NCBI GenBank assembly: GCA_964615425.1
Contig: CAZTOB010000002.1
Location: forward strand, 1 to 54,408
Length of the DNA stretch: 54,408 bases
Direction: 5' to 3'
Origin: an uncultured Candidatus Saccharibacteria bacterium
GTDB taxonomy: Bacteria > Patescibacteriota > Minisyncoccia > Minisyncoccales > CAYTKG01
The position numbers and the translations under genes are program-made. Under the pieces are notes generated by a model. The model was given only the letters and a program-made list of their open reading frames with translations, ran no database searches and was not told the origin of the DNA. Numbering within the stretch: position 1 is the stretch's first letter; each line of letters begins with the position of its first letter. Below are positions 42,468 through 54,408 of this stretch, piece after piece.

Positions 42468-42871
42468 ATATCAAACAAAATCTTAGCCCTCCATCTTTTT
42501 CCACGTTTTTCAAGTTCCAAGTCATGAAAGGTGGCCGCTTTAACTTGAAGACCGAACCTTCTCACCTTCCATCCATATATCTTTCCCACCAGCTCGTTGT
42601 CTTCAAACTTGGAGAAATGAACGTGGGTGTAAACCTCGCGTTTAACCTCGCTTAAATAATTAACTTCATTTAAAAAATCCACCAAAAGCGCTTCCGCATC
42701 TTCAGAAAGGATCCTTATCTTCTCCTCAGCTTTTTCATCTTTCTTTTCCGGCCGCAGACCTTCTGCTAAAGCCTGCATCGCATTTTCAAAGAGAAGCTCC
42801 TTGTTTTTTCCGAAGACTTCAACCTCAAAATCAGCGGGATGCTCTAGGATTTTGTAAGGTTTTTGTGTCAT
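42464..42871 (-). CDS. Archease (RtcB activator)
   Basis: 135 aa. The N-terminal YKILEHPADFEVEVFG signature is present, and the stop overlaps the rtcB start (ATGA). Confidence 0.85.
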   Translation of the reverse strand: MTQKPYKILEHPADFEVEVFGKNKELLFENAMQALAEGLRPEKKDEKAEEKIRILSEDAEALLVDFLNEVNYLSEVKREVYTHVHFSKFEDNELVGKIYGWKVRRFGLQVKAATFHDLELEKRGKRWRAKILFDI

Positions 42872-43787: not shown

Positions 43788-44714
43788 ATGATCCTGCTGC
43801 TTCACGGAAAATGCAACTTCCTTTCTCTAAGAGAGTTAAAAAGAATCACTTCGGAGCAAAAGAAAAAAGGCTCCAGCTTAGAATATGTCGATCTAAAAGA
43901 AAAACACTATCAAAACTTCAAAAGCGCTTTCTTTTCCCGTTCGATGTTTTCTAAAAAAAAGACGGTAGTGGTTAAAAACGGAGCGGGCAGACAAAAGTTT
44001 GAGAAAAAGTTCTTGAAGGATAAAGAAAGGTTTCTCGCTAGTCCCTATCTTCTAATCTTTTACTCCAGAAAAAAACTTAAAAAAAGTAAACTTTTAAAGT
44101 TTTTAGAAAAAAACGCCAAAGTCAAAGAGTTTAAGAAGCCCTCCAAAAGGAAACTCGAAAAATGGATTAAAAATGAAGCGTCCCGCTACAACGCGGAACT
44201 TACTCCCTCCGCCCTAAAAGCTCTTTTAAATCTTCAAAGAAAAGATCTTTGGCGCCTGTCTCTTGAAATTAATAAATTAGCCAACTACAAGGGAGCCTCT
44301 AAAGAAAAAAGAGCAACCATAACCGAAAAAGACATCGACCTTTTGATTAGAGAAGAAGTCGAAAAAGACATCTTCAAAAGCATCGACGCTTTAGCTTTAA
44401 AAAAGAAGAAAAAAGCTCTCGCCTTAATCAGAAACCATCTGGAGGAAGGAGACCACCCAGCCTATCTTTTATCCATGATCGCCTGGCAGATTTCCCGTCT
44501 TTTGGTTATAAAGGAAAGAGAGGAGAGAGGTGAAAGCTTGAAAGATTTAGGTTGGCATCCTTACGTTGTCAAAAAAAGCAGGAGGATAAGTAGAAATTTC
44601 TCTCTTAATGAGTTAAAGTCTTTTTTTCACCTTACAGCGGAGTTCGACTTGAAAATAAAAACGGGCCGCGTTGACCCGGAATTAGCCTTAGAACTTTTAG
44701 TGGCCAAAATCTAA
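43788..44714 (+). CDS. holA: DNA polymerase III delta subunit
   Basis: MILLLHG is a typical start. The ELTPSALKALL...INKLANY...ITEKDIDLL...IFKSIDAL pattern matches HolA. The ATG at 43788 is preferred over the GTG at 43767. Confidence 0.75.
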   Translation: MILLLHGKCNFLSLRELKRITSEQKKKGSSLEYVDLKEKHYQNFKSAFFSRSMFSKKKTVVVKNGAGRQKFEKKFLKDKERFLASPYLLIFYSRKKLKKSKLLKFLEKNAKVKEFKKPSKRKLEKWIKNEASRYNAELTPSALKALLNLQRKDLWRLSLEINKLANYKGASKEKRATITEKDIDLLIREEVEKDIFKSIDALALKKKKKALALIRNHLEEGDHPAYLLSMIAWQISRLLVIKEREERGESLKDLGWHPYVVKKSRRISRNFSLNELKSFFHLTAEFDLKIKTGRVDPELALELLVAKI

Positions 44715-45589
44715 CCTTGGCATTCAGGGCAAAATCTGGTAGAGCGGCTCCCTATTTTTCTTCTTTTGATTTTCTCACCGCAGCGGGGGCATTTTTCCCC
44801 GTCTTTGCCGTAGACTACAAGCTCTTTGTCGTAGTCACCTTTTTCACCCGAAGGCCTTCTGTAGTCCGAGGTGCTGGTGCCTCCTTTCTTAACAGCTTCT
44901 TTTAACACACTTTTCATCTCTTCGAAGATTCTTTCCAGCTCCTTCTTAGTTAAAGTGTCAGCCTTTCTAAAAGGATGAACCTTAGCCCTCCACAAAATCT
45001 CATCACTGTAGATATTGCCCACCCCAGCTATAAACTCCTGGTTCATAAGGAGGGATTTCACCCTTCCCCTCCGGCCCTTAAAAAGCTTTTTAAACTTTGA
45101 AAAAGAAAAGCTAGAAGAAAGAGGCTCGGGCCCCAAATTCTCTAAAATCTCTTTTGTCCCTTTTTCATCTTGAAGCTCCACCCTTCCAAACTTACGCATA
45201 TCGGAAAGAGCGATCATAAAGTCATTGTCAAGGGTAAAAAGAAGATGAATATAGGAGTTCATCTTATCACTCATCGCTTTTTTACGAGAAAGAGGCTCCC
45301 ACTTTTCTCCTTTTTTTTCCCACCGGCCGTACAAAAGATGACCGGTCATTTTTTGATGGATTAAAAGGTTTTGCTCTGAACTTAACTTAAAGATGATCCA
45401 CTTCCCCCGCCTTCTAATATCTTTTATCATTTCTCCCCTGATTCTTTTTTTAAAAATCTTGAAGCTTCCAGGATTTTTAATGAGTTTCGGAGCATCACTC
45501 CATACATCCAAAAAACAAGCCCCTAAGATAGAGGGGCTTTGGTTTCTTAAATCCTGCACTATATTTTCCACTTCCGGAAGCTCCGGCAT
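44711..45589 (-). CDS. mutM: Formamidopyrimidine-DNA glycosylase (Fpg/MutM)
   Basis: MPELPEVE is the catalytic Pro2/Glu3 N-terminus. An H2TH region and a C-terminal zinc finger (CPRCGEKI...FCPECQ) follow. Confidence 0.92.
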   Translation of the reverse strand: MPELPEVENIVQDLRNQSPSILGACFLDVWSDAPKLIKNPGSFKIFKKRIRGEMIKDIRRRGKWIIFKLSSEQNLLIHQKMTGHLLYGRWEKKGEKWEPLSRKKAMSDKMNSYIHLLFTLDNDFMIALSDMRKFGRVELQDEKGTKEILENLGPEPLSSSFSFSKFKKLFKGRRGRVKSLLMNQEFIAGVGNIYSDEILWRAKVHPFRKADTLTKKELERIFEEMKSVLKEAVKKGGTSTSDYRRPSGEKGDYDKELVVYGKDGEKCPRCGEKIKRRKIGSRSTRFCPECQG

Positions 45590-45590
45590 T

Positions 45591-45968
45591 TTAACTTAAA
45601 ACCTCTTTTACTTTTTCGATTATCTCCTGAGGGGTAAAATGAGCCTTGATTAAATAGTCGATAGCGCCAAGGTTGAGACCTCTCTCAATGTCTTCCCTTT
45701 GACCCAGGTTGGAAAGAATAATAATTGGGATGTTTTCTACCTCCTTCTCTTTTTTAACCCGGGACAAAACCTCAAAACCGTCAATTCCGGGTAGAATAAG
45801 GTCCAGCAAAACAACATCAGGTTTTATTTTTTTAAGCTTTTTAAAGCCGTCTTCCCCATCAACCGCTGTCTCGACTTCATAACCCCGTCCCGCCAACTTG
45901 CGGCTGATTAATTCTCTTAAAAACTTATCGTCTTCAACGATTAAAATTTTTTCTTTCGAATTTGACAT
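45591..45968 (-). CDS. Single-domain response regulator (receiver only, CheY-like)
   Basis: 125 aa with acidic pocket EDD, the phospho-acceptor context VLLDLILPGIDG, and conserved S(N) and K (IKAHFTP). Confidence 0.88.
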   Translation of the reverse strand: MSNSKEKILIVEDDKFLRELISRKLAGRGYEVETAVDGEDGFKKLKKIKPDVVLLDLILPGIDGFEVLSRVKKEKEVENIPIIILSNLGQREDIERGLNLGAIDYLIKAHFTPQEIIEKVKEVLS

Positions 45969-45999
45969 ATTCTTTTTTCTTAAACTTTTGAATTTGTTT

Positions 46000-46371
46000 T
46001 CAAATGTTTTCTTTTACCTTTTGAATCACTTCCATAGGATCAAACTCCGTTTTAACCAGCCAGTCATTGGCTCCCAGCTCTCTAGCTTTGTCAAGTTCTA
46101 CAGGCTGCCCGGAGTTGGAAATGATGACCACGGGGATATCTTTAGTTATCTCATTTAACTTGGCCTTTTTCAAAACTTCCATCCCGTCCATTTTAGGCAA
46201 AACAATGTCCAAAAGCACCAAATCAGGTTTTTCTTCCTCTACCTTTTCAAGACCTTCCTCGCCGTCCCGAGCCATAACTACTTCATAACCACTAGCTATA
46301 AGCTTTTTAGCTAAAAGCTCGATTATGATTCTTTCGTCTTCAATAATCAATATTTTCTTTTTAGAGGACAT
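46000..46371 (-). CDS. Single-domain response regulator (receiver only, CheY-like)
   Basis: 123 aa with IEDE, VLLDIVLPKMDG and VKTEFDP. It is a paralogue of the adjacent receiver. Confidence 0.88.
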   Translation of the reverse strand: MSSKKKILIIEDERIIIELLAKKLIASGYEVVMARDGEEGLEKVEEEKPDLVLLDIVLPKMDGMEVLKKAKLNEITKDIPVVIISNSGQPVELDKARELGANDWLVKTEFDPMEVIQKVKENI

Positions 46372-46376
46372 AGATA

Positions 46377-46715
46377 TTATTCACTAAAACTTTTAATTTC
46401 TGTTTTCCTGCTCTCACCCCTAAGGCGTTTTCTTAAAAAACCCACCACGGCTAGACAAAGAAGAGCTAAGGCAGCAATTTCAGTTGTTTCAGAATAAAAG
46501 TTAATGGTGGCAAAAGCCTGTTCGTGAACAGAGGTAAAAATATCCACCAACTCAGATAGGCCGAGCAGAAAAAGCCCAGCGGTAAAAACTTTCCAACTGG
46601 AAGATACCTTCCCGCTTTTTCTTTTTGCCTTTAAACCAGTAACCAAAGCAAAGAAAAATGTCCCGAAAGCAAGGAGAGTGATCAAACAATGCAAGATGAC
46701 AAGATAAGTAACCAT
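46377..46715 (-). CDS. Small 4-TM membrane protein, unknown function
   Basis: 112 aa. It shares an LLGLSE(L/V)(V/I)D motif with the adjacent 122-aa protein. Confidence 0.55.
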   Translation of the reverse strand: MVTYLVILHCLITLLAFGTFFFALVTGLKAKRKSGKVSSSWKVFTAGLFLLGLSELVDIFTSVHEQAFATINFYSETTEIAALALLCLAVVGFLRKRLRGESRKTEIKSFSE

Positions 46716-46717
46716 AA

Positions 46718-47086
46718 TCAGCTGTATCTTTTTTGAATTTTAAACATCGCAAAAAATATTAAGGCAAAGCCCGCTATTCTTAAAACCTCTTGAACGCTAT
46801 AAATCGGAGGGTAAAAAACTAGATAACCAGCCCTGGAAACCAATATGCTCTGCCACCAATCAATGACCTCGCTCACAAGAAGTGTTAAAAACCCGACCCC
46901 AAGCAAGGGGAAGAAGTATTCAAGACGGGAAGAGGGAATCTTTCTTAAAAGGTAGAAAACAACAGCTACCAGGATCACGTTAACAAGAATGGTAAAAAAG
47001 CCCATCGCCTGACATGTACACCCTAAATCCAAGGGCCACACGCTCCGCAAAACTTCTTGGTTGAAACTTATTAAAGAATCCATCAT
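46718..47086 (-). CDS. Small 3-4-TM membrane protein, unknown function
   Basis: 122 aa. Its TLLVSEVIDWW motif is similar to that of the 112-aa neighbour. Confidence 0.55.
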   Translation of the reverse strand: MMDSLISFNQEVLRSVWPLDLGCTCQAMGFFTILVNVILVAVVFYLLRKIPSSRLEYFFPLLGVGFLTLLVSEVIDWWQSILVSRAGYLVFYPPIYSVQEVLRIAGFALIFFAMFKIQKRYS

Positions 47087-47096
47087 TTTTTCCTTT

Positions 47097-47534
47097 TTAC
47101 TCTCTTCTAAAAAGCCACAAAATTATACCGACAAAAGAAACAATAAATGAAAAGGCGATATCCCAAAATATCTGACTCATCACCCAAAAATCAAGCATTC
47201 CCGTTACAAGCCAAATGCCTACGTTGAGAGCGTAGGCCAAAGCACCCACCCCGAAAGAAAACACCACTCTTTCCAAAAGAGGAAGATTCGGATACATCGC
47301 CAAAGTCAAACTGAAGCCCGGCAGAAAGAAAAAAAGCGAATACAAAAAAACTTGGCAAAAAATTATCAAAAGAGGATAAACATGCAGTTTTCCCGGAGCT
47401 CCCACCAGCTGCTCTGTCTGCTCGGCAGCCCCTCCCGCTACAATAGCCATAAAACCCATGAGAAAAGTTAAAAGAGCTGCTACAAGATAAGCAATCATTT
47501 GCGGAGATTTTAACTTGAATTTGGCTAGACTCAT
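47097..47534 (-). CDS. Small 4-TM membrane protein, unknown function
   Basis: 145 aa and hydrophobic throughout, with no recognisable motif. Confidence 0.55.
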   Translation of the reverse strand: MSLAKFKLKSPQMIAYLVAALLTFLMGFMAIVAGGAAEQTEQLVGAPGKLHVYPLLIIFCQVFLYSLFFFLPGFSLTLAMYPNLPLLERVVFSFGVGALAYALNVGIWLVTGMLDFWVMSQIFWDIAFSFIVSFVGIILWLFRRE

Positions 47535-47577
47535 AATTACTTTTCTTATTATACCTTCTTTGATTTTTTAATCAAGC

Positions 47578-49140
47578 CTATCCTTCCACGAATCTTTCCG
47601 ATTCATGTTCTATCGGCAGAATGAACCAAAAAACCGAGCCTTCTCCTTCTTCGGATTCAAACTGGATTTTTCCTCCGTGGGCTTCAACAATATTTTTGGT
47701 TATGAAAAGCCCCAAGCCCGTTCCAACCGTCTCCAATCTCATAACATTGGACCCGCGGAAAAATTTACTAAAAACTCTGTCCTTTTGATCTTCAGGGATT
47801 CCTACTCCCTGATCTTTAACTGCAAACTGAATCTCGTCGTTTTTTCTTTCGATACTCACCCACACTTTTTTCCCCGATAAGGTATATTTTACAGCATTAT
47901 CAATCAAGTTTTGAACAGCAATTCTTATCTTTTCTTCATCAAGCGGTATCTCGGGAATCTCCCCGGACTTTTCAAAAACAATTTCTATTCCTTTTTGTTC
48001 CACCTCGGGTCTTTCAGCATCGATGATTGATTTAACAAGTTCAACAAAATCAACCGGCTTTGGTTTGTAAACAAACCTTCCTTCTTCAATCCGAGTCACA
48101 TTAAGAAGCGAGTTAACCAAATTGATCATTCTTTCATTGGAGCTATAAGTTTTTCCCAAGAACTCTCTTTGTTCTTCCGTCAACTCCCCCAAATCCCCGT
48201 CCAAAAGCATCTTAAGAGTCCACTTGATAGCCGAAAGAGGAGTTCTCAGCTGATGAGCAGCAATGGAGACAAATTCTGTTTTCAAGCGTTGAACCACCTT
48301 TTCTCGTGTCACATCGTGGAGAATAACAAGGTGGCCCATATCTTCCGCCTCCTGCTTCATATCCACGTTGGAAACTTCCAAGATAAGGTCTTCCCTCAAA
48401 TCTAAATCTTCCCTGGAAAAAGAATCTTCCACTCTGCCTTCTATGAATTCAAGGAACTTGCCCGCCTTCCCTTCCCGCGGAACATCTTCCAGCCTCTTTC
48501 CCTCCACCTCATCCCCCTTAATATTTAAAAACTCTTCCGCCTTGGGGTTGACAAACATAACTTCGTGACTCGAACTAAAAACAATCAACCCATCACTCAA
48601 ATTAGTAATGACAGCCTTGGTTTTTTCCCTTTCCTGCTCCGCCCTTTTTCTTGCTTCTTCTGTGTCTTCTAAAATATTTAAAAGTGCGGTTTGGGATTTT
48701 CTAAGCTCCTTTTCCTTTTCTTTGATTTCCGAAAGATCCAGTATTCCGAGGAAATAACCGATTGTCTTTCCTTCTTCGTCCTTTCTAGTTCTCAAGAAAA
48801 TCTGAACCGGCATCAACTTTCCATCCTTGGTTTCCATCACCGCTTCCCTTCCTTCTACCCTCTCCCCAGCCAAAACTTTTTCACTCATCTCGGTAATTTC
48901 TTTCGATTTAAAAAGTTCTTCTACTGATTTGCCGATCAATTCGTTGAAATCATAGCCTGTTATCTCTTCAAAAGCGGGGTTGATTTCAAGAAGAATGTTC
49001 AAGGGACTCACAAAACAGATAGGAAGGGGGGAAAAGTTAAAAAGTTCGTGCACATAGTTTTCTAAAGAAGCAAGATCTTCCAAAAGAAGTTCAGTTCTTT
49101 CTTTTTTGGCTTTTTCTGATTTAATTACCTGGTTTTTCAT
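47578..49140 (-). CDS. Soluble PAS-PAS sensor histidine kinase (HisKA + HATPase_c)
   Basis: The H-box is FVSIAAHQLRTPLSAIKW, the N-box NLIDNAVKYT, G1 DQGVGIP and G2 GTGLGLFITKNIV. There is no TM segment. The ATG at 49138-49140 (MKNQVIK) is preferred: it is preceded by GGGAG and lies 1 nt after the upstream stop. Confidence 0.9.
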   Translation of the reverse strand: MKNQVIKSEKAKKERTELLLEDLASLENYVHELFNFSPLPICFVSPLNILLEINPAFEEITGYDFNELIGKSVEELFKSKEITEMSEKVLAGERVEGREAVMETKDGKLMPVQIFLRTRKDEEGKTIGYFLGILDLSEIKEKEKELRKSQTALLNILEDTEEARKRAEQEREKTKAVITNLSDGLIVFSSSHEVMFVNPKAEEFLNIKGDEVEGKRLEDVPREGKAGKFLEFIEGRVEDSFSREDLDLREDLILEVSNVDMKQEAEDMGHLVILHDVTREKVVQRLKTEFVSIAAHQLRTPLSAIKWTLKMLLDGDLGELTEEQREFLGKTYSSNERMINLVNSLLNVTRIEEGRFVYKPKPVDFVELVKSIIDAERPEVEQKGIEIVFEKSGEIPEIPLDEEKIRIAVQNLIDNAVKYTLSGKKVWVSIERKNDEIQFAVKDQGVGIPEDQKDRVFSKFFRGSNVMRLETVGTGLGLFITKNIVEAHGGKIQFESEEGEGSVFWFILPIEHESERFVEG

Positions 49141-49141
49141 T

Positions 49142-49726
49142 TCACTCCCATTTGACATAGTATTTGTGAATTCCTTTTTCTGGTTCACATTTTTCGTCCA
49201 CCTCGACCTTACTTTTTGTCACCATCCGGCCGAGGCCTTTAAAATAACCTTTCATGCACTCGCAATAAATAGGATGGCAGCGAAAATCGCTTACCACCAG
49301 CTCTATCTCTTTTTTTTCTTCCTCGAATTTTAAAACCTCCACTTTGCCAAAACTCCAATACTCTCTCCACATACGTGACACCTTTTTTAAAAGTTTAGAG
49401 ACGGAATAGAAATACTTAAGATAAAGACGAACGGCAAAAGAAACACCGGCTGCAAACTCACACATTTTTCTTATATCTTCCTTTTCCCAACCGAAAACTT
49501 CTTTAGCCGCTAAAAGAGAAAGAGTTCTCCATCCAGCTGGATAAAACTTAAGATTTTGAATCTCGCTGTAACGGAAATCAACGCCCCACGAGGAAAGTTT
49601 TTTCTCTACTTTTTCTAAACCCTCCTTTCCTTTTTCTTTTAAGATATATTCCGCATCGTTTTTCAAGTGAATTCCTCTCGCTTCTCCTTTCAACTCTTTC
49701 AACTCTTTTATCGCTTTCTTTTTCAT
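49142..49726 (-). CDS. V4R/H-NOX-superfamily-like small-molecule-binding protein (DUF2378/V4R-like), paralogue A
   Basis: 194 aa. The C-terminal pattern HPIYCECMKGYFKGLGRMV...VEVDEKCEPEKG...YYVKW resembles the V4R C..G...G....v.E..C...G consensus. Confidence 0.45.
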   Translation of the reverse strand: MKKKAIKELKELKGEARGIHLKNDAEYILKEKGKEGLEKVEKKLSSWGVDFRYSEIQNLKFYPAGWRTLSLLAAKEVFGWEKEDIRKMCEFAAGVSFAVRLYLKYFYSVSKLLKKVSRMWREYWSFGKVEVLKFEEEKKEIELVVSDFRCHPIYCECMKGYFKGLGRMVTKSKVEVDEKCEPEKGIHKYYVKWE

Positions 49727-49728
49727 TT

Positions 49729-50319
49729 TTAATTCCAGGTAATATGAAACTCGTGAGCCTTGACTCTTCCATCTTCAAAAGGACATTTTACTTCTTCGCA
49801 TTTTACTTTTCCATTAACCACCATATTCAAAATCGTCTCCAGATAACCTTCAAGATAAATGCAAAAAAGAGGGTGACCCTTAAAGTTTTCCAGACGTACG
49901 GTCGCTTCTTTTTTCTCTTCGTCCGCTTCAGCTGAAAGATCTCCCATCGTGTAATGTTTACTCCACATCTGAGGAGATTGCTTAACAGTTCTTTCCACGG
50001 AAAAAAAGAAACGGGCAAAAAGTTTAATTACCAAGGACTCCTTGGGAGCCATCCTTCCCATATCTTTGAAGTCCTTTTCCGTAAACCCAATTTCGTCGCG
50101 GTAAATAATAAAAGACAAAAGACGAAGGCTCAAGGGATAGAAATCCATCGGTTTTATCCTGCTGTAAAGAAACAGCTTTCCTTCTTTACTCAAGGCCCTT
50201 TCCGCCTTACCCAGCGCCTCCTGACCGAATCTTCTCGAAATGAACCGGGCGTCGGTAGCGAAGGTTACCCCTCTTGTTTCACCCTCCATTTCTTTAACTT
50301 TCTCTTTTTCGTCATTCAT
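49729..50319 (-). CDS. V4R/H-NOX-superfamily-like small-molecule-binding protein, paralogue B
   Basis: 196 aa and collinear with paralogue A (GE.RG, FYP, W..., HPLFCIYLEGYLETILNMV...CEEVKCPFEDG...FHITW), at roughly 30% identity by eye. Confidence 0.45.
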   Translation of the reverse strand: MNDEKEKVKEMEGETRGVTFATDARFISRRFGQEALGKAERALSKEGKLFLYSRIKPMDFYPLSLRLLSFIIYRDEIGFTEKDFKDMGRMAPKESLVIKLFARFFFSVERTVKQSPQMWSKHYTMGDLSAEADEEKKEATVRLENFKGHPLFCIYLEGYLETILNMVVNGKVKCEEVKCPFEDGRVKAHEFHITWN

Positions 50320-50854
50320 CTCCGGTTTTTTGTTTTTTACCGTATTTCAAATTTCTTATTTCTTCTTTAAGTTTTATCATTTTAAGCTCCCGGCCCACCG
50401 CCACCTTGCGAAATTTCTCCAGCTCTTCCACTTTTTTTTCCAGCTCTTTTTCTTTTTCTTTAATCTCACTCAGGTCAAAAACACCTAGGAAAAGACCAAC
50501 CGGATCATTTTTTTCTCCCTTGCGGGCTTTTCCGAAAATGCTGACAGGACATTCCTCTCCGTTCTTTTTAACCAAGGTCATCTCTTTAGCCTTAACACTG
50601 TCTTCCTTCAAAACCTTTTTTATAACCTCCTCAACCGTCTCTTTAAATAGTTTTGCCACGTCTTCTCCCACCGCCTCATAAGCCGGGTAACCCGTCATCC
50701 TTTCAAAAGCGGGGTTGAATTCTAAAATAACGCCTAAAGGAGAGATGAAGGCGATGGGAAGAGGAGAAAAGGTAAAAAGATCGGAGATGTAGCTTTCAAG
50801 GGCGGACAAGTCATCCATCAAGGTCTTTATCTTTTGTTTTTCTTCTTTGGCCAT
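50312..50854 (-). CDS. Stand-alone PAS domain protein with C-terminal coiled-coil (VGRELKMIKLK motif)
   Basis: 180 aa. The PAS region (FSPLPIAFISPLGVILEFNPAFERMTGY) is paralogous to the first PAS domain of the kinase. There is no kinase or other output domain. Confidence 0.8.
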   Translation of the reverse strand: MAKEEKQKIKTLMDDLSALESYISDLFTFSPLPIAFISPLGVILEFNPAFERMTGYPAYEAVGEDVAKLFKETVEEVIKKVLKEDSVKAKEMTLVKKNGEECPVSIFGKARKGEKNDPVGLFLGVFDLSEIKEKEKELEKKVEELEKFRKVAVGRELKMIKLKEEIRNLKYGKKQKTGDE

Positions 50855-50856
50855 TT

Positions 50857-52023
50857 TTATTCTTTAGATATTTTCTCCGCCACAACCTCAGCTGTGTGAA
50901 TAGAAGTGTCGTAAGGATAGTAGTAGAAGTCACCTGCTAAATAAACTCCTTTAAGATTTGTCTCCAGCTCGGGCACTTTCGGATCCGGTCTTAAACAGGG
51001 GAGAGGCAGTATCTCTTCTTCGGAAATGATCTCGTAATCATCATAGATAAACCCGAGATCAACCTTTTCATTTTTGTTCCAAGGAAGAAAGTATTGTTCC
51101 TCCTCAACGAAATTAAGGAAAAGCCTCAAATTAAACGCGTTGCCCGGAAGACCCATAAGAAGTCTTCTTTTGGGATGTTTGAGCTTTCCCCGAACCAGAA
51201 TAATTCTGTTTTCCGGATAAAAGACACCAGAAGGAATCTCCACATCAGGAAAGATCTTAGAAACCTCCGGCAGAGGCAGAGCGAAAACTATCTTGTCAAC
51301 CTGCATGTCTTTTTCTTCGTCCAGTTTCAAGTAATTAACTTGGAATCCCTCTTCTTTTTGAGAAACTCTTTTTGCCTCGCAGCCGGTTAGAACTTCACCC
51401 CCATTTTTTCCTATGGAGTTTAAAAGGACATTCGTTAAACTCATCATGTTGAGTTCTTCAAAGCGAAGCGCCTCCCCGGACATCACCTCGTTTCCCATCC
51501 GGATCAAATGCAGACCGTAATCGGCACTTATCTTGCTCAAATCATCTTTTCCGGAGAGTATCCAGGCAGCAGCGAAAGCCATGTTTTTAACCTCTTCAGA
51601 AAGATTTTCTCCGTACTCCGCTAAAGACTGACTTCTAACCTTCAAAAGTTCTTGGGAGGGAGAAAAAGGATCAAAACTCAAAGAGTTAACCATTTGCGAA
51701 AAATCCTGAAACTCGCTCATCTGCTCTTCGCTTAAAGCTTCCTTTAAGACAGAGGGAAATTTTTCCAGAGGAAGAAAATCTTCTCCGAAAAAACCAATCT
51801 CTTTTACTTTTAGAGGAATTGACATCTCATCAATTCCCATCTCTTCCACCAGGCCCATAAGGTGTTTTTGAAAGTCTTTAGAGCCGATCACCGCAGCATA
51901 TTGTATTCTTCCTCCGGCAACCGCTTCCTTTTCAAAAACAACCGGCTTAAAACCTTTTTCTGCCAGGCGGTGGGCACAGGCCAAACCCGCCAAACCGCCT
52001 CCAATAATACCTACTTTTTTCAT
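50857..52023 (-). CDS. FAD/NAD(P)-binding oxidoreductase (amine-oxidase / phytoene-desaturase / protoporphyrinogen-oxidase-like fold)
   Basis: The N-terminal dinucleotide fold is KVGIIGGGLAGLACAHRLAEKGFKPVVFEKE..GGR, and the C-terminal motif is GVYLAGDF. Confidence 0.75.
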   Translation of the reverse strand: MKKVGIIGGGLAGLACAHRLAEKGFKPVVFEKEAVAGGRIQYAAVIGSKDFQKHLMGLVEEMGIDEMSIPLKVKEIGFFGEDFLPLEKFPSVLKEALSEEQMSEFQDFSQMVNSLSFDPFSPSQELLKVRSQSLAEYGENLSEEVKNMAFAAAWILSGKDDLSKISADYGLHLIRMGNEVMSGEALRFEELNMMSLTNVLLNSIGKNGGEVLTGCEAKRVSQKEEGFQVNYLKLDEEKDMQVDKIVFALPLPEVSKIFPDVEIPSGVFYPENRIILVRGKLKHPKRRLLMGLPGNAFNLRLFLNFVEEEQYFLPWNKNEKVDLGFIYDDYEIISEEEILPLPCLRPDPKVPELETNLKGVYLAGDFYYYPYDTSIHTAEVVAEKISKE

Positions 52024-52035
52024 AATAGTATTTTT

Positions 52036-52887
52036 TTAATTTTTTAATCTTTTTTGTAAATTTTTTATCCTTCTCTCAGCTTCCTTAAGCTCTCTCTTAA
52101 GCTCCACCATCTTAAGCTCCCGGCCCACCACCAATCTTTGAAATCTTTCCAAATCCTTTATCTTTTTCCTAAGCTCCCGGGTCCTTTCCTTTATTAAGTC
52201 TTCTCTTTTTTCCGCCAACTCCCGCAGTTCCTGAGTGCGCGCCTTGACTCTTACTTCGAGAACTTTTTCCGCCTCCTTCGCTTTTTCCCTTTCTTCTTCC
52301 AACTGCCTTCTGCTTTCTTTAAACATCTCAGAAAAGGTGCCGGCTGAAGAAGAAACAAAGAAGAAGAAGACACCACTTATCAAAACCTGGGCTAAGGCCC
52401 GAGCAAAAGTAAAGGTGAAAATCTCCTGCTTGAAAACTTGTTGATGCGGCAAAAATCCAAAATACTCCAAAAAGATAAGTCCGGAATAAAGAAGAAGAGC
52501 GCAGGAAGGAACAAGAAAATTCTTTTTCTTAGGAAGAAGAAGCCCTCCTAAAACAATGGTGAAGGTATAAAACAAGGATCCGATCCAGACGGTAGCGCCC
52601 AGAAAATAAATAAAAAAGGTTTCAAACAGAAGGTCGGCTAGGTTGAAAAAGAAGTAAAGGTTGTAAAGACCATCTTTCGTTTGCGGTTTTTCAAGTATCT
52701 TTTGCCAAAAGAAGATATAGGTAAGCTCCCAAAAAAGAAGCCCTCCGATGACAAGATAGGGAACGGGCACGTTAAGAACAACCCTGAACAAAACCGCTAA
52801 AATACAAAAACTGGCCACCGACTGAGCGGATATGCGGACATCAACCCTGAACTTTCTTTTGGTCTCTTTAAACTCGACGCCGGGCAT
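52036..52887 (-). CDS. Membrane protein (about 6 TM) with cytoplasmic coiled-coil ending in the VGRELKMVELK motif
   Basis: 283 aa with a hydrophobic N-terminal region of about 180 aa, then EEEREKAKEAEKVLEVRVKARTQELRE...VVGRELKMVELKRELKE. Confidence 0.65.
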   Translation of the reverse strand: MPGVEFKETKRKFRVDVRISAQSVASFCILAVLFRVVLNVPVPYLVIGGLLFWELTYIFFWQKILEKPQTKDGLYNLYFFFNLADLLFETFFIYFLGATVWIGSLFYTFTIVLGGLLLPKKKNFLVPSCALLLYSGLIFLEYFGFLPHQQVFKQEIFTFTFARALAQVLISGVFFFFVSSSAGTFSEMFKESRRQLEEEREKAKEAEKVLEVRVKARTQELRELAEKREDLIKERTRELRKKIKDLERFQRLVVGRELKMVELKRELKEAERRIKNLQKRLKN

Positions 52888-52899
52888 AAGATTTTAATT

Positions 52900-53451
52900 T
52901 TAGACGTTAAAAAGTTCTCTTAAAGCGGTTTCCTCGGCTAAAATACCTACCAATTTAGCCAATCTTTCCGCTCTCTCTTTCATCTCCTCCTCCGTAACCG
53001 ACTCTATCTCATCCACCGCCGCTTTAACAAACTCATCTTTTTTGTCTATACCTAGCTCCTCAGCCAAATTCTTGTAATACTCTTTTAGATCCTCCTCGCT
53101 TTTGCCCCGTTCATATCTCCCGCCGCACCCGGTAATAGAACCCACTATCCTCCCTTCCACCTTAATCGGAACCCACAAAGAGGCAAATCCCGCATAGCAG
53201 TCCATAAAAATTGACTCTTCTTGACTTTCCACCAAGGAAAGAGCTGTTTTGTAAGCTTTCTGACATTCTTTTTTGCCTTCCTCGGTTTCCATAATCATCT
53301 TGCAGACCTTCTGCTGGCCGCTCATCTCGGTGATGAGGTTGCCTTCACTGTCCGTGGTTACGATTTGTCCGCCGACAGAATCAGCGAAGTTGTCTTGGAG
53401 TGTCTGAAGATTTTTAACAAACCACTCCGTTTCTTTTGAAATTTTGTTCAT
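52900..53451 (-). CDS. Stand-alone PocR sensory domain protein
   Basis: 183 aa. LQDNFADSVGGQIVTTDSEGNLIT...CKMI...G...C, then CYAGFASLWVPIKVEGRIVGSITGCG, matches the PocR domain pattern. Confidence 0.7.
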   Translation of the reverse strand: MNKISKETEWFVKNLQTLQDNFADSVGGQIVTTDSEGNLITEMSGQQKVCKMIMETEEGKKECQKAYKTALSLVESQEESIFMDCYAGFASLWVPIKVEGRIVGSITGCGGRYERGKSEEDLKEYYKNLAEELGIDKKDEFVKAAVDEIESVTEEEMKERAERLAKLVGILAEETALRELFNV

Positions 53452-53506: not shown

Positions 53507-54408
53507 TTATGAAAAAAGATTGTTTTGTTTCCTCCTGTTGCCCGGAAGACGAGGAATGAGAGAGTGAAACCCCCACCGGCGGAAAAGATCTTCAATTTTG
53601 TCTTTTTCATGATTTTGAAAAGAACACTCGTCAAGTTTAAAATCCAAAGGAACGTCTTTTCTTGCCGTAGCCAGCTCTTTGGAGAAATAAGCTTCATCTT
53701 TTTTTTCCTTTAAAAGCTTTTTTACTCTTTTTCTTCTCGAGTAACCTTTTAAAAACTCCTGGGGAGCGTTTTCCAACGCCTCGTAAACAGCATCAAGATC
53801 TCCGTATTTAAAAAGAAGCTTTGAAGCTGTAACGTCTCCCACGCCTTTAACTCCCGGAATGTTGTCCGAAGGATCACCCTTAAGCCCCCGGTAGTCGTCC
53901 AAAAGCTCGGGGCTGAATCCGTATCTTTTCCTAACCGCTTCCTCGCTATAAAGAACGGTGTCTTTCATGCCCCTTTTCAACCCGTAAACCTTCACGTTTT
54001 CATCAACCAGCTGTAGGGTGTCCAGATCTCCGCTTACTATGACAACTTCCGTCTTTTCCCCTGCCACCTTTTCTGCCACCGTTGCTATAATATCATCCGC
54101 TTCAAACCCGGGCTTTTCTAAAACAGGGATCTCCATCGCTTCCAGAGCTTTTTTAATCAAAGGTATCTGATCGGCCAGCTCATCAGGAGTTTTGGGCCTT
54201 TGGGCTTTGTAATCCTTGAATTTTTTATGGCGGAAGGTCGGCTCCGGCCGGTCAAAGGCCGCGCAGACGTAATCCGGCTCTATTTCTTTAACCGCCTTTA
54301 AAAAAACCAAAAAGAACCCGTAAACCGCGTTTACAAGTTTTCCTTCCGGAGTTTTAAGATCCGGAAGAGCGTGATATCCCCGATGGACCAGGGCATTGCC
54401 GTCTATTA
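53507..54408 (-). CDS. Stand-alone 5'-3' exonuclease / flap endonuclease (Pol I N-terminal domain homologue), 5' end outside window
   Basis: The frame stays open beyond the track ORF to the window edge (..IDGNALVHRGYHALPDLKTPEGKLVNAVYGFFLVFLKAV..). Motifs FDRPEPTFRHK, EADDIIAT, SGDLDTLQLV and GVKGVGDVTASKLL are present. The protein stops at about 300 aa with no polymerase domain. Confidence 0.85.
   Translation of the reverse strand, partial: IDGNALVHRGYHALPDLKTPEGKLVNAVYGFFLVFLKAVKEIEPDYVCAAFDRPEPTFRHKKFKDYKAQRPKTPDELADQIPLIKKALEAMEIPVLEKPGFEADDIIATVAEKVAGEKTEVVIVSGDLDTLQLVDENVKVYGLKRGMKDTVLYSEEAVRKRYGFSPELLDDYRGLKGDPSDNIPGVKGVGDVTASKLLFKYGDLDAVYEALENAPQEFLKGYSRRKRVKKLLKEKKDEAYFSKELATARKDVPLDFKLDECSFQNHEKDKIEDLFRRWGFHSLIPRLPGNRRKQNNLFS

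What the first reader, a model, noticed from the sequence alone, without database searches (positions are those of the whole stretch)
45591..53451. 12-gene 'split-sensor' two-component operon with no output domain
Seen in sequence: twelve minus-strand genes lie with gaps of 12 nt or less or with overlaps, apart from one 43-nt and one 31-nt gap. In transcription order they are:
- a PocR-only protein;
- a 6-TM protein with a coiled-coil tail;
- an FAD oxidoreductase;
- a PAS-only protein with a coiled-coil tail;
- two tandem V4R/H-NOX-like paralogues;
- a soluble PAS-PAS histidine kinase;
- three small polytopic membrane proteins;
- two receiver-only response regulators.

mutM follows 1 nt later. 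Domains that are normally fused into one large sensor kinase (PocR, PAS, V4R, membrane anchor) are encoded here as separate polypeptides. No DNA-binding, cyclase, phosphodiesterase or methylation output is present.

Established knowledge: PocR and V4R domains are predicted binders of small hydrocarbon-like ligands. Single-domain receivers act on motors or pili (CheY, PilG/PilH) or as phosphorelay intermediates.

Inference: this is a multi-input, redox- and/or small-molecule-sensing module whose output is protein-protein. One possible target is the type IV pilus/competence machinery encoded elsewhere in the window. Such elaborate signalling is unexpected in a reduced, probably symbiotic genome, and I do not recognise this gene combination as a described system.
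Basis: partly seen in the sequence, partly recalled or inferred. Interest (0 to 1): 0.7.

Follow-up and report, generated by a model that had tools for sequence, protein, structure and literature searches.

The report
Split-sensor signalling hub of Parcubacteria
The twelve genes are a real, lineage-specific enlargement of a signalling locus conserved across many Parcubacteria (candidate phyla radiation), in which separate sensor proteins, many ending in the same undescribed helical tail, appear to feed one soluble histidine kinase and two receiver-only proteins whose target is unknown.

Summary
Twelve tightly packed minus-strand genes lie at the stated coordinates, with the stated domains and no output domain.

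The twelve genes are not one conserved unit.
- **Conserved core.** More than 40 Patescibacteria loci share this order: 5'-3' exonuclease, at least one "tail" sensor, 0-5 V4R/H-NOX-fold proteins, a PAS histidine kinase, REC, REC, then mutM or holA.
- **Accessory genes.** PocR recurs in a few loci. The FAD enzyme occurs only in the window and its nearest relative. The three small membrane genes are deleted in that relative.

New points:
1. G2 and G4 share a C-terminal module of about 75 aa: two S-helix units plus the motif ERFxxLxVGRELKMxELK. At least 533 metagenomic genes carry it, behind interchangeable sensor domains. It is always terminal, no Pfam model covers it, and 31 of 38 testable loci have this kinase type downstream.
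2. G5 and G6 have an H-NOX-like fold with a MopR-type Cys/Glu/Cys/His site and no conserved heme ligands. Their presence tracks the kinase's first PAS domain.

Best reading: stand-alone sensors control a soluble kinase in trans, as H-NOX/HnoK and NosP/NahK do. The output partner is unknown, and a type IV pilus link is only a lead. This is a new variant of a known kind.

The parts
52900..53451 (-). G1: stand-alone PocR-domain protein (183 aa). Accessory sensor, not part of the conserved core.
   Evidence: Pfam PocR E 2.5e-28. Orthologues sit in the same position, just after the 5'-3' exonuclease, in L028 (phmmer 1e-85) and in L071 and L076. It is absent from most related loci.
52036..52887 (-). 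G2: PilS-like 6-TM sensor whose last TM helix runs straight into the conserved C-terminal tail (283 aa).
   Evidence: 6TM_PilS E 0.037 for G2 itself; 10 of 29 family members hit it (best 2e-6). The AF2 model (pLDDT 83) shows one continuous helix over residues 161-282. Orthologues lie directly after the exonuclease gene in many loci.
52039..52290 (-). Tail module of G2 (about residues 200-283): two S-helix-type units (ART/ERT) followed by the terminal motif ERFQRLVVGRELKMVELK.
   Evidence: 115 of the 120 listed G2 hits carry it 9-36 aa from the C-terminus, behind unrelated N-terminal sensor domains. Invariant residues are listed. No Pfam model covers it. Weak matches to the DctB S-helix and the NosR REC-HD-GYP linker.
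50857..52023 (-). G3: divergent FAD-dependent oxidoreductase (388 aa; amine-oxidase/phytoene-desaturase/HpnE-like Rossmann fold). Lineage-specific accessory gene.
   Evidence: Pfam Amino_oxidase 3.8e-12 and NAD_binding_8 4.7e-11. NCBIfam PRK07233 and HpnE hits lie far below their cut-offs. PDB hits cover only the N-terminal dinucleotide motif. Found only in the window and L001 among about 110 loci.
50312..50854 (-). G4: PAS domain plus short tail (180 aa). The PAS domain is a paralogue of the kinase's first PAS domain.
   Evidence: PAS_9 2.6e-13. 45% identity to G7 residues 26-200. Tail shared with G2. Orthologues occur in L003, L004, L010, L012, L013, L024 and many metagenomic loci.
50315..50473 (-). 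Tail of G4 (residues about 128-180), ending in EKFRKVAVGRELKMIKLK.
   Evidence: BLASTP alignment to the G2 tail, 54% identity over 37 aa; motif search.
49729..50319 (-). G5: stand-alone sensor protein with an H-NOX-like fold and a V4R-type C-terminal half (196 aa).
   Evidence: 448 representative clusters in its family, almost all about 200 aa. V4R hit in 32 of 61 members. AF2 pLDDT 95. Foldseek top hits are H-NOX domains, TM 0.74. C153/E176/C179/H189 are conserved in 52-55 of 61 sequences and align with the MopR zinc-site residues.
49142..49726 (-). G6: paralogue of G5 (194 aa).
   Evidence: 33% identity over 189 aa, E 2e-36. It keeps the Cys/Glu/Cys/His positions.
47578..49188 (-). G7: soluble PAS1 - coiled coil - PAS2 - HisKA - HATPase_c histidine kinase. 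The start is uncertain (GTG 49188, ATG 49158 or ATG 49140).
   Evidence: HATPase_c 8.2e-30, HisKA 4.1e-17, two PAS stretches. Best NCBIfam resemblance is to PnpS/WalK/PhoR, below the cut-offs. H-box AAHQLRTP is read in the translation. Alternative starts are listed. The L001 gene call uses the ATG equivalent to 49158.
48589..48687 (-). Helix 'SQTALLNILEDTEEARKRAEQEREKT' in front of PAS2. Candidate docking site for the tails (inference only).
   Evidence: 52 of 58 related kinases carry this helix about 143 residues before the phospho-His, whether or not PAS1 is present. In short kinases it is preceded by an ERT S-helix unit at the very N-terminus.
47548..47575 (-). Sigma-70-like promoter match (TTGATT-16-TATAAT) in the 43-nt gap after the kinase gene. 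Possible internal promoter.
   Evidence: 10 of 12 matches; promoter-like sites are not enriched overall. The same sequence is kept after the kinase gene in L001.
47097..47534 (-). G8: small 4-TM protein (145 aa), no recognisable relatives. Dispensable accessory.
   Evidence: No family hit. No homologue in 865 small ORFs from related loci. Deleted in L001.
46718..47086 (-). G9: small 3-TM protein (122 aa), with a remote resemblance to the small TM proteins found between kinase and REC genes in other loci.
   Evidence: Its best, marginal phmmer hits are the 129-aa proteins at the same position in L028, L039 and L050 (E 0.08-0.18). Shares the motif RKIPxS...SE(V/L)xD. Deleted in L001.
46377..46715 (-). 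G10: small 3-TM protein (112 aa) with the same motif as G9.
   Evidence: BLASTP against the L028 117-aa protein, E 3e-4 without composition correction. phmmer E 0.024 to the L050 129-aa protein. Only its last 30 nt survive in L001.
46000..46371 (-). G11: receiver-only response regulator, type A (123 aa).
   Evidence: Response_reg 1.6e-24, no other domain. The acidic pocket, phospho-Asp (LLDIVLP), Ser and Lys are read in the translation. Orthologues occur in every complete locus.
45591..45968 (-). G12: receiver-only response regulator, type B (125 aa).
   Evidence: Response_reg 3e-26. It is consistently the second REC gene and forms an orthologue group distinct from G11.
53507..54310 (-). Upstream boundary marker, not part of the system: stand-alone 5'-3' exonuclease.
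   Evidence: 5_3_exonuc_N 1.5e-42. It lies within 4.5 kb upstream of the first tail gene in 29 of 44 metagenomic loci.
44711..45589 (-). Downstream boundary marker, not part of the system: mutM (Fpg).
   Evidence: H2TH and Fapy_DNA_glyco hits. It follows the second REC gene in most loci; in others holA does.

Best explanation
The region is an enlarged, lineage-specific version of a multi-component two-component locus conserved at one genomic position in Parcubacteria-type Patescibacteria.

**Shown**
- The invariant core is one or more 'tail' sensors, one soluble HisKA-type kinase and two distinct receiver-only proteins. It lies between a 5'-3' exonuclease gene and mutM or holA.
- Between the boundary genes, the set of stand-alone sensor genes differs from genome to genome. 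It includes 6TM, HAMP, Cache, flavodoxin-TM and PAS modules that carry the tail. It also includes V4R/H-NOX-fold, FIST/NosP-type, HbpS-like, PocR, solute-binding, metallo-beta-lactamase-fold and small 3-TM proteins.
- In this window the set is PocR (G1), 6TM-tail (G2), an FAD enzyme (G3), PAS-tail (G4), two V4R/H-NOX-fold proteins (G5, G6) and three small membrane proteins (G8-G10).

**Inferred mechanism**
1. G2 and G4 are the sensor halves of a kinase split within its signalling-helix region. Their parallel coiled-coil tails (two S-helix units plus the terminal VGRELKM motif) dock non-covalently on the kinase dimer. The most likely site is the conserved ERT/ALLNxLED helix in front of PAS2. 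In this way they set the autokinase/phosphatase balance.
2. G5 and G6 bind a small hydrophobic ligand next to a structural zinc site. They act on PAS1-type domains, namely the kinase's PAS1 and the paralogous PAS of G4, as H-NOX proteins act on their kinases.
3. The kinase phosphorylates G11 and/or G12. These act by protein-protein contact on a partner encoded elsewhere, or one of them serves as a phosphate sink.

PocR, the FAD enzyme and G8-G10 are optional add-ons with no established role.
For: **Domains and spacing.**

**Conserved order.** The same order is found in the 87%-identical relative, in 10 further genome loci and in dozens of metagenomic loci.

**Tail module.**
- 115 of the 120 listed G2 hits share the tail, strictly C-terminal, behind HAMP, dCache, flavodoxin, PAS, 7TM, 6TM or DUF4395 modules.
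- At least 533 tail-encoding stretches were found in metagenomes.
- 5 of 7 sampled tail genes, and 31 of 38 metagenomic loci with enough downstream sequence, have this kinase type within 6 kb on the same strand.
- 44 of 47 kinase loci with at least 3 kb upstream carry at least one tail gene, including all 11 loci that were ascertained through V4R and not through the tail.
- The tail carries two ART/ERT S-helix signatures and weakly matches the DctB S-helix. According to PMC1592074, S-helices almost always lie between a sensor domain and an effector domain. Here nothing follows the tail, and the motif is never internal in any ORF of about 110 loci.
- In the G2 model, TM6 is continuous with the tail.

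**Kinase helix.** 52 of 58 kinases share the ALLNxLED helix. In short kinases it begins with an ERT unit.

**V4R/H-NOX-fold proteins.**
- H-NOX-like fold, V4R hits and a conserved Cys/Glu/Cys/His set aligned to the MopR zinc site.
- V4R genes occur in 26 of 29 loci whose kinase has PAS1, against 3 of 20 without it (Fisher 1.5e-7). In the tail-ascertained subset the split is 14 of 17 against 3 of 20.

**Sensors in homologous loci.** FIST/NosP-type, HbpS-like and solute-binding proteins, all known classes of trans-acting kinase co-sensors, occupy the same slots.

**Precedent.** H-NOX and NosP bind and regulate neighbouring kinases, and a Legionella hnox gene lies next to a kinase and a CheY-like regulator (PMC8738867).
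Against: - No physical interaction, phosphotransfer or transcript was tested. Every coupling is inferred from gene neighbourhood.
- Genomes in this group are compact and highly syntenic, so adjacency is weaker evidence than usual. mutM and the exonuclease are packed just as tightly and are clearly unrelated to signalling.
- No fused 'Rosetta stone' protein (tail motif followed by the kinase) was found.
- Profile comparison gave no similarity between the tail and the kinase DHp domain.
- V4R-fold paralogues are also scattered next to unrelated housekeeping genes. They are therefore not dedicated kinase partners by position.
- Two of seven sampled tail genes lie away from any kinase.
- The loci are not phylogenetically independent, and the 80 metagenomic loci are those most similar to G2's tail. 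The counts therefore overstate independence.
- The FAD enzyme and G8 have no parallel in other loci.
- G8-G10 are dispensable in the closest relative.
Confidence: 0.68

Rival explanations
1. Only the kinase and the two receivers form a functional unit. The other nine genes are unrelated neighbours held together by the compaction and strong synteny of a reduced genome: a metabolic flavoenzyme, membrane proteins of other function, and general ligand-binding proteins.
For: - mutM (1 nt away) and the exonuclease (55 nt away) are equally tightly packed and clearly unrelated.
- The FAD enzyme is confined to one lineage.
- G8-G10 are deleted in the nearest relative without other change.
- V4R paralogues also sit next to radical-SAM, methyltransferase, LeuRS, ExoVII and PRTase genes.
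- A promoter-like site follows the kinase gene.
Against: - The neighbours are almost all classical signalling input domains.
- The slot between the exonuclease and the kinase is filled in different genomes by different sensor types that share one tail.
- Tail genes accompany the kinase in 44 of 47 loci, and V4R genes track PAS1. Synteny alone does not explain this.
Confidence: 0.12
2. The system is a split PilS-like pilin or envelope sensor that controls type IV pili or DNA uptake. G2's PilS-like 6TM domain monitors pilin or membrane state. The soluble kinase then phosphorylates PilG/PilH-like receivers, which act on a pilus ATPase.
For: - 10 of 29 G2-family members hit the 6TM_PilS model (precomputed hits).
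- The receivers are CheY-like single domains.
- A T2SSE-family ATPase lies within 3.5 kb upstream of the exonuclease gene in 21 of 27 related loci.
- The window encodes a prepilin-like protein and ComEC.
Against: - G2's own 6TM_PilS score is below the threshold.
- In many loci the 6TM sensor is replaced by HAMP, Cache or flavodoxin sensors while the kinase and receivers stay the same. Pilin sensing therefore cannot be the general input.
- The ATPase is divergently transcribed, is separated from the locus by tsaE and the exonuclease, and is missing upstream in the window's nearest relative.
- No PilR-type regulator is present.
Confidence: 0.12
3. The tail proteins are not inputs to the kinase. 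They are instead membrane scaffolds or targets on which the phosphorylated receivers act, so that the tail is a receiver-docking site.
For: - Tail genes co-occur with the two REC genes as consistently as with the kinase (28 of 38 against 31 of 38 loci). Neighbourhood data therefore cannot separate the two partners.
- No output protein is otherwise visible in the locus.
Against: - The N-terminal parts of tail proteins are typical input modules (HAMP, dCache, PAS, flavodoxin, 7TM).
- The tail consists of S-helix units, which transmit signals from sensors to downstream domains (PMC1592074).
- The kinases begin with a matching ERT helix.
Confidence: 0.06
4. It is a reduced chemotaxis-type pathway, with HAMP/coiled-coil receptors acting as short MCPs and CheY-like receivers.
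For: Some databases label HAMP-tail relatives as methyl-accepting chemotaxis proteins. The receivers are single-domain.
Against: - No MCP signalling domain and no CheA, CheW, CheR or CheB was found in the window cluster or in any related locus examined.
- The tail is only about 75 aa.
- The kinase is HisKA-type, not CheA.
Confidence: 0.02

Closest known systems
H-NOX/HnoK (HqsK) and NosP/NahK (VpsS) systems: stand-alone sensor proteins that control a neighbouring histidine kinase in trans
   Same: - A small stand-alone sensor gene sits next to a soluble or hybrid kinase and regulates it by binding (PMC8738867).
- G5 and G6 have the H-NOX fold.
- FIST/NosP-type genes occupy the same slot in homologous loci.
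- In Legionella an hnox gene lies beside a kinase and a CheY-like regulator (PMC8738867).
   Different: - No conserved proximal His or YxSxR heme motif; a Cys/Glu/Cys/His zinc-type site is present instead.
- One to five paralogues per locus.
- Additional tail sensors are present.
- The receivers carry no EAL, HD-GYP or HTH output domain.
Canonical membrane sensor kinases with a signalling helix (for example DctB and NarX/NarQ): sensor - TM - (HAMP) - S-helix - DHp - CA in one chain
   Same: The modules and their order are the same: a membrane or PAS sensor, S-helix units with the ERT signature, then PAS-DHp-CA (PMC1592074, PMC4077058).
   Different: - The chain is broken here. The sensor and S-helices end in a conserved terminal motif on one protein, and the kinase starts on another.
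- Several different sensor halves accompany one kinase.
Accessory-protein ('three-component') systems: HbpS-SenS-SenR, QseG-QseE, LiaF-LiaS
   Same: Extra proteins encoded with the two-component pair modulate the kinase (PMC4991794, PMC12691602, PMC3543457). An HbpS-like gene is found in a homologous locus.
   Different: Those systems have one dedicated accessory protein and a membrane kinase with its own sensor. Here there are up to nine accessory genes, a soluble kinase and a shared docking-type tail.
PilS-PilR
   Same: The 6-TM domain of the G2 family resembles the PilS transmembrane domain. It is followed functionally by a PAS-HisKA kinase.
   Different: - The TM domain and the kinase are separate proteins.
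- There is no PilR-type REC-AAA+-HTH regulator.
- The 6TM sensor is interchangeable with other sensors in related loci.
MopR/DmpR/XylR/PoxR aromatic-effector sensor domains (XylR_N + V4R)
   Same: A sensor unit of about 200 aa with a V4R C-terminal half. The Cys/Glu/Cys residues have the same spacing as MopR C155/E178/C181, shown by the alignment. That these residues form the MopR zinc site is from my own recollection. DmpR appears among the fold matches (rank 50).
   Different: - Stand-alone, not fused to an AAA+ activator.
- The fourth ligand is His, not Cys.
- The overall fold is closer to H-NOX than to DmpR in the Foldseek ranking.
- The ligand is unknown.

Membership tests
Two-component system (HisKA-type kinase plus receiver) | Kinase with a HisKA H-box histidine and a HATPase_c catalytic domain | tested here: met
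   HisKA 4.1e-17 and HATPase_c 8.2e-30. AAHQLRTP H-box read in the translation.
Two-component system (HisKA-type kinase plus receiver) | Receiver domains with an acidic pocket, phospho-acceptor Asp, and conserved Ser/Thr and Lys | tested here: met
   Response_reg 1.6e-24 and 3e-26. The residues IEDE/VEDD, LLD(I/L), SN and K are read in the translations.
Two-component system (HisKA-type kinase plus receiver) | Phosphotransfer from this kinase to these receivers | not testable with these tools
   Needs in vitro phosphotransfer profiling.
H-NOX heme sensors | H-NOX fold over about 180-190 residues | tested here: met
   Foldseek top 40 hits are H-NOX domains. Best is 2o09_A: TM 0.74, rmsd 2.9 over 191 columns. 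Model pLDDT 95.
H-NOX heme sensors | Proximal heme-ligating His on helix F and the YxSxR propionate-binding motif (these features are from my own knowledge of the family) | tested here: not met
   Across 61 family members, His exceeds 30% only at positions 122, 149 and 189. None lies in the 90-115 helix, and no YxSxR motif is conserved. There is no sequence-level match to any H-NOX chain. A structure-based residue alignment could not be made.
H-NOX heme sensors | Encoded next to a kinase or cyclase partner | tested here: met
   G5 and G6 directly precede the kinase gene. The same holds in 26 of 29 PAS1-kinase loci.
V4R domain (PF02830) / MopR-type sensor | Match to the Pfam V4R model at its gathering score | tested here: inconclusive
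   G5 scores 18.4 bits against a cut-off of 31, and G6 has no hit. However, 32 of 61 relatives hit V4R at E <= 0.01 (best 1.4e-7). A 180-aa relative in L092 scores 41.7 bits.
V4R domain (PF02830) / MopR-type sensor | Cys/Glu/Cys/Cys zinc site in the C-terminal half | tested here: met
   C153, E176, C179 and H189 are conserved in 55, 54, 55 and 52 of 61 sequences. They align to MopR C155/E178/C181, with the fourth position next to H188/C189. The fourth ligand is His here. Metal binding itself was not tested.
PocR sensory domain (PF10114) | Full-length match above the gathering score | tested here: met
   99.3 bits against a cut-off of 23.9, covering profile positions 6-160 of 162. G1 is not the PocR regulator itself (NCBIfam 26.8 bits against a cut-off of 500).
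Signalling helix (S-helix; PMC1592074) | Parallel coiled-coil segment of about 40 residues with the ERT signature | tested here: met
   Two units: A24-R25-T26 and (E/K)-R43-T44 are invariant or nearly invariant in the tail alignment. Weak match to the DctB S-helix crystal construct (E 0.06).
Signalling helix (S-helix; PMC1592074) | Lies between an upstream sensor domain and a downstream signalling domain in the same protein | tested here: not met
   The tail ends 9-36 residues after the terminal motif in 115 proteins. It is never internal in any ORF of about 110 loci.
PilS-type sensor kinase | 6TM_PilS transmembrane domain | tested here: inconclusive
   G2 itself has E 0.037, below the cut-off. 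10 of 29 family members hit at E <= 0.01, best 2e-6.
PilS-type sensor kinase | TM domain fused to PAS-HisKA-HATPase, with a PilR (REC-AAA+-HTH) partner | tested here: not met
   G2 ends after the tail, the kinase is a separate soluble protein, and both regulators are receiver-only.
Chemotaxis pathway (MCP/CheA/CheW/CheY) | MCP signalling domain together with CheA and CheW | tested here: not met
   No such domains were found in the cluster or in the related loci examined.
   G5 and G6 gave no NCBIfam hit at E <= 0.1 and no such Pfam hit at E <= 1.

The most novel reading that the evidence does not exclude
The C-terminal module of about 75 aa (two S-helix units plus ERFxxLxVGRELKMxELK) is an undescribed portable 'plug'. 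It lets many interchangeable sensor proteins (6TM, HAMP, Cache, flavodoxin, PAS) couple non-covalently to one soluble histidine kinase. Parcubacteria would then build their main receptor from exchangeable parts, rather than by domain fusion. V4R/H-NOX-fold proteins would add ligand inputs through PAS1. The two receiver-only outputs would act directly on cell-surface machinery such as the neighbouring T2SSE-type pilus ATPase. A related motif (ERFNRLAVGRELRMIELKxEVN) at the end of PAS proteins in other phyla suggests that the plug is used more widely.
Probability: 0.3. Interest if true: 0.8.

Novelty: new variant of a known kind. Interest (0 to 1): 0.6.

Why it matters
- **A handle on what these organisms sense.** Patescibacteria have tiny genomes and few regulators, and almost nothing is known about what they sense. 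This locus is one of the few signalling systems they keep, and it sits at a fixed position with a fast-changing set of sensors. It therefore offers a route to the signals that matter for their probably host-dependent life, which may include redox state, gases, small hydrophobic ligands and envelope state.
- **A possible new coupling principle.** A conserved signalling-helix tail with nothing fused behind it suggests that sensor-to-kinase coupling can be achieved between separate polypeptides through a dedicated coiled-coil module. That would be of general interest for two-component signalling and for engineering modular receptors.
- **A possible missed motif.** The tail is not covered by any Pfam model and has relatives outside this group. 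It may be a widespread motif that has been overlooked.

Tried and rejected
1. **Tail as a His-less mimic of the kinase DHp helix.** hhalign of 117 tails against 18 DHp segments gave no alignment. Rejected.
2. **Fused tail-kinase 'Rosetta stone' proteins.** The terminal motif is never more than 60 aa from a C-terminus in any ORF of about 110 loci, and it occurs in none of 58 kinases.
3. **tblastn of the tail against plasmids.** No match, probably because of low-complexity masking.
4. **Pfam and NCBIfam scans of the tail consensus.** Only sub-threshold coiled-coil noise, plus one weak match to the NosR REC-HD-GYP linker.
5. **PDB sequence and fold searches.** For the tail, only a weak DctB S-helix match. 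For the G2 model, nothing significant: the best hits are ImcA and the adenylyl cyclase 9 TM region at E 0.09 and above.
6. **Contexts of the extra V4R paralogues.** No consistent partner; the neighbours are housekeeping genes.
7. **DUF2378/TIGR02265 assignment for G5 and G6.** No hit.
8. **Chemotaxis reading.** No MCP, CheA or CheW domains.
9. **Internal terminators.** No terminator-like hairpin lies in an intergenic gap of the cluster. Promoter-like sites are not enriched (8 found against 12.1 expected), so operon structure stays unresolved.
10. **Homologues of G8.** None found.
11. **Exact-sequence look-up of G5.** Not on record. The word-index search found only the 92%-identical relative, and the exhaustive search was needed to see the family.
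12. **Literature searches.** Searches for the motif and for Patescibacteria two-component systems found no description of this locus.
13. **KaiC association of the tail.** The idea rests on one locus only (L034), which is too thin to use.

Full report
**1. Observation**

The twelve minus-strand ORFs exist exactly as described. I call them G1 to G12 in transcription order.

- **Spacing.** The gaps are 12, 12, 2, -8 and 2 nt. Next comes -47 nt, or +1 nt if the kinase starts at the ATG at 49140 instead of the GTG at 49188. The remaining gaps are 43, 10, 2, 5 and 31 nt. mutM begins 1 nt after G12, and a 5'-3' exonuclease gene ends 55 nt before G1.
- **Secure domain calls.** These are PocR (G1, 2.5e-28), an amine-oxidase-type FAD protein (G3), PAS (G4), PAS-PAS-HisKA-HATPase_c with no membrane segment (G7), and two receiver-only proteins (G11, G12).
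- **Weaker calls.** G2 has five to six hydrophobic helices and a long C-terminal helix. G8, G9 and G10 have 4, 3 and 3 hydrophobic segments and no family. G5 reaches V4R only at E 0.0024, and G6 has no hit.
- **No output domain** is present anywhere in the cluster.
- **Operon signals.** No terminator-like hairpin falls in an intergenic gap. One promoter-like site (TTGATT-16-TATAAT, 47575-47548) lies in the 43-nt gap after the kinase gene.

Tight spacing proves little here, because the clearly unrelated flanking genes are packed just as tightly.

**2. Internal relationships**

- G5 and G6 are paralogues (33% identity, E 2e-36).
- G4 is a paralogue of the first PAS domain of the kinase (45% identity over 178 residues).
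- G2 and G4 share a C-terminal segment ending in VGRELKM(V/I)(E/K)LK (54% identity over 37 residues).

**3. Conservation**

*Nearest relative.* The closest relative found is contig CAYLVJ010000006.1. Its record title says 'uncultured Candidatus Saccharibacteria', which is probably a generic label. It is collinear with the window at about 87% nucleotide identity and has the same genes and flanks. The one difference is that window positions 47532-46407 (G8, G9 and most of G10) are replaced by 74 bp. The last 30 nt of G10 survive there, so that lineage lost the three genes.

*Genome survey.* An exhaustive profile search shows that G5 belongs to a family of 448 representative clusters. Almost all members are stand-alone proteins of about 200 aa. 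Scanning one genome per species with this family returned 22 loci. Those whose record titles name a lineage are Patescibacteria (Nealsonbacteria, Paceibacterota and similar), and a few titles say only 'bacterium' (lineage).

Ten of them (besides the window's own relative) repeat this order:

5'-3' exonuclease, [6TM-tail], one to five V4R-like genes, [PAS-tail], PAS kinase, REC-A, REC-B, mutM.

*What is core and what is not.* The core is conserved but the twelve-gene set is not.
- The FAD enzyme occurs only in the window and its close relative.
- PocR recurs in three other loci: L028 (phmmer 1e-85, same position), L071 and L076.
- Small 3-TM proteins recur between the kinase and REC genes in L028, L039, L050 and L092. 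They share a motif, RKIPxSWK...(A/S)E(I/L)x(E/D), with G9 and G10. The statistical support is marginal.

**4. The tail**

*Distribution.* A search with G2 returned 143 proteins. Of the 120 listed, 115 carry the same C-terminal module of about 75 residues, placed 9-36 residues from the end. Its consensus is:

LEEAKxVLEIKVxARTRELRELAExLEExVKERTKELQEKxxELERFQRLxVGRELKMIELKKEI

The N-terminal parts are unrelated to one another. They include PilS-like 6TM, HAMP, dCache, flavodoxin plus TM, PAS, HisKA_7TM and DUF4395.

*Composition.* The first two thirds are two S-helix units with the ART/ERT signature. They weakly match the DctB S-helix and the linker of a REC-HD-GYP family. The last third is a motif of its own. 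No Pfam model covers the module.

According to Anantharaman et al., S-helices almost always sit between a sensor domain and a downstream signalling domain (PMC1592074). Here nothing follows, and the terminal motif is never internal in any ORF of about 110 loci. In the AlphaFold model of G2 (pLDDT 83), the sixth TM helix continues as a single helix through the whole tail. This is the geometry of a sensor kinase cut off before its DHp domain.

*Where tail genes lie.*
- Five of seven sampled tail genes sit in the same syntenic slot: tsaE, exonuclease (or full PolA), tail sensor(s), kinase, REC, REC, then mutM or holA. Two sit elsewhere.
- A metagenome scan with the tail profile found at least 533 confirmed genes.
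- Among the 80 best loci, 38 have at least 3.5 kb downstream. Of those, 31 have the G7-type kinase within 6 kb on the same strand and 28 have REC genes.
- Conversely, 44 of 47 kinase loci with at least 3 kb upstream contain at least one tail gene. This includes all 11 loci that had been found through V4R rather than through the tail.
- The minimal version is tail sensor, short kinase, REC, REC (L026).

*The matching kinase helix.* 52 of 58 kinases share a helix, (S/T)xxAL(L/M)N(I/M)LED...EEKNKT, about 143 residues before the phospho-His. It is present with or without PAS1. In the short kinases it stands at the very N-terminus and is preceded by an ERT unit. Both halves therefore carry S-helix-type segments. 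I infer, but cannot show, that these associate and rebuild the signalling path.

**5. The V4R/H-NOX-like proteins**

- The G5 model is confident (pLDDT 95).
- Its best structural matches are H-NOX domains over the full length (TM 0.74). TRAPP Bet3 and DmpR rank lower.
- At sequence level the family matches V4R (32 of 61 members).
- Cys153, Glu176, Cys179 and His189 are conserved in 52-55 of 61 members. The first three align with MopR C155, E178 and C181, which I recall to be the MopR zinc ligands.
- No His is conserved where H-NOX proteins ligate heme, and no YxSxR motif is conserved.

G5 and G6 are therefore V4R-type ligand binders with an H-NOX-like overall fold, and not demonstrable heme sensors.

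Their presence tracks the kinase's PAS1 domain. They occur in 26 of 29 PAS1-positive loci against 3 of 20 PAS1-negative loci (Fisher 1.5e-7). In the subset ascertained through the tail, the split is 14 of 17 against 3 of 20. This points to PAS1, and its paralogue in G4, as their contact.

Two caveats apply. The loci are not phylogenetically independent. Further paralogues are scattered among housekeeping genes elsewhere in the same genomes.

**6. Other sensors in homologous loci**

The same slots hold FIST/NosP-type proteins, solute-binding proteins (ABC_sub_bind, SBP_bac_3), metallo-beta-lactamase-fold proteins, a short V4R protein and an HbpS-like protein.

Several of these classes are known trans-acting partners of kinases: H-NOX and NosP (PMC8738867) and HbpS (PMC4991794). 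This supports the functional reading of the locus as one kinase with exchangeable stand-alone sensors.

**7. Mechanism**

*Shown:*
- a conserved kinase and two-receiver core;
- obligatory tail sensors;
- optional V4R, PocR, FAD and small-TM genes;
- no output domain.

*Inferred:*
- G2 (membrane) and G4 (cytoplasmic) dock on the kinase dimer through their tails.
- G5 and G6 modulate PAS1-type domains when ligand binds.
- The kinase phosphorylates G11 and/or G12. Both have the full set of receiver residues.
- The receivers act by protein-protein contact, or one of them is a phosphate sink.

*The target is unknown.* A T2SSE-family ATPase lies within 3.5 kb upstream of the exonuclease gene in 21 of 27 related loci. 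The window encodes a prepilin-like protein (19342-19842) and ComEC (2212-3717).

**8. Comparison and novelty**

Regulation of a kinase by separately encoded sensors is well known. So are receiver-only outputs.

Three things differ here:
- the number and interchangeability of the sensors;
- the soluble kinase with no membrane sensor domain of its own;
- above all, the shared terminal S-helix module, which I could not find described.

A related motif, ERFNRLAVGRELRMIELKxEVN...PPRY, ends PAS proteins outside this group. I therefore rate the finding as a new variant of a known kind. It is real and conserved, with an interesting but untested coupling mechanism.

**9. Limits**

- Everything beyond domain content and gene neighbourhood is inference.
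- No interaction, cofactor, transcript or phosphotransfer could be tested.
- The counts come from related, non-independent loci that were partly selected through the features being counted.

Noticed in passing
window 46407-47532 versus L001 12785-12858: A 1,126-bp segment (G8, G9 and most of G10) is replaced by 74 bp in the 87%-identical relative. The last 30 nt of G10 are retained there, which indicates a recent clean deletion in that lineage.
   Followed up: yes
window 47548-47575 (-); L001 about 12741-12777: A sigma-70-like promoter match lies directly after the kinase stop codon and is conserved in the relative. It would drive the small TM genes and the two REC genes separately from the sensor and kinase genes.
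   Followed up: partly
L011, L017-L023 (Patescibacteria genome contigs): The 200-aa V4R/H-NOX-fold family is multi-copy and dispersed in these small genomes, with up to five copies in 20 kb. Copies lie next to unrelated housekeeping genes. Two tandem-fused members exist (P0002, 405 aa; P0005, 410 aa).
   Followed up: partly
L034 5001-5210 and 5226-6503; L033 1392-5252: Outside Patescibacteria, a variant of the tail motif (ERFNRLAVGRELRMIELKxEVN...PPRY) ends PAS proteins. One copy sits 16 nt upstream of a KaiC-like double-ATPase gene. Another closes what looks like a fragmented CheB-CheR-PAS protein next to HWE/HisKA kinases.
   Followed up: partly
L032 2762-4906: A PAS-tail gene lies directly after a FIST/FIST_C (NosP-type) gene, on a contig with no kinase nearby. 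It sits among toxin-antitoxin genes (ParE, HicA).
   Followed up: no
L024, L026, L029, L030 and 21 of 27 related loci, upstream of tsaE and the exonuclease: A T2SSE-family (pilus/secretion) ATPase of about 435-460 aa is a conserved, divergently transcribed neighbour of the signalling locus. It is missing at this position in the window's nearest relative, where PDDEXK, AAA_14/DUF4143 and 23S_rRNA_IVP genes lie instead.
   Followed up: partly
L029, L040, L059, L095 compared with window 53507-54310: In most loci the upstream boundary gene is a stand-alone 5'-3' exonuclease of about 300 aa. In some it is a protein of about 740-750 aa; in L029 this carries the DNA_pol_A domain, and the others were judged by length only. 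The polymerase domain appears to have been lost or split off in many of these genomes.
   Followed up: no
L039, L092, L104 kinases: The kinase helix motif is tandemly duplicated (ALMNMLEDVEGSRKALMNMLEDVEE) in three related loci.
   Followed up: no
window 2212-3717, 5632-7740, 19342-19842, 41025-42871: Elsewhere the window encodes ComEC, an anaerobic ribonucleotide reductase (NrdD with ATP-cone) and a prepilin-type protein (N_methyl motif). By synteny with L001 it also encodes an archease-RtcB pair. This fits an anaerobic Patescibacteria genome that is competent for DNA uptake.
   Followed up: partly
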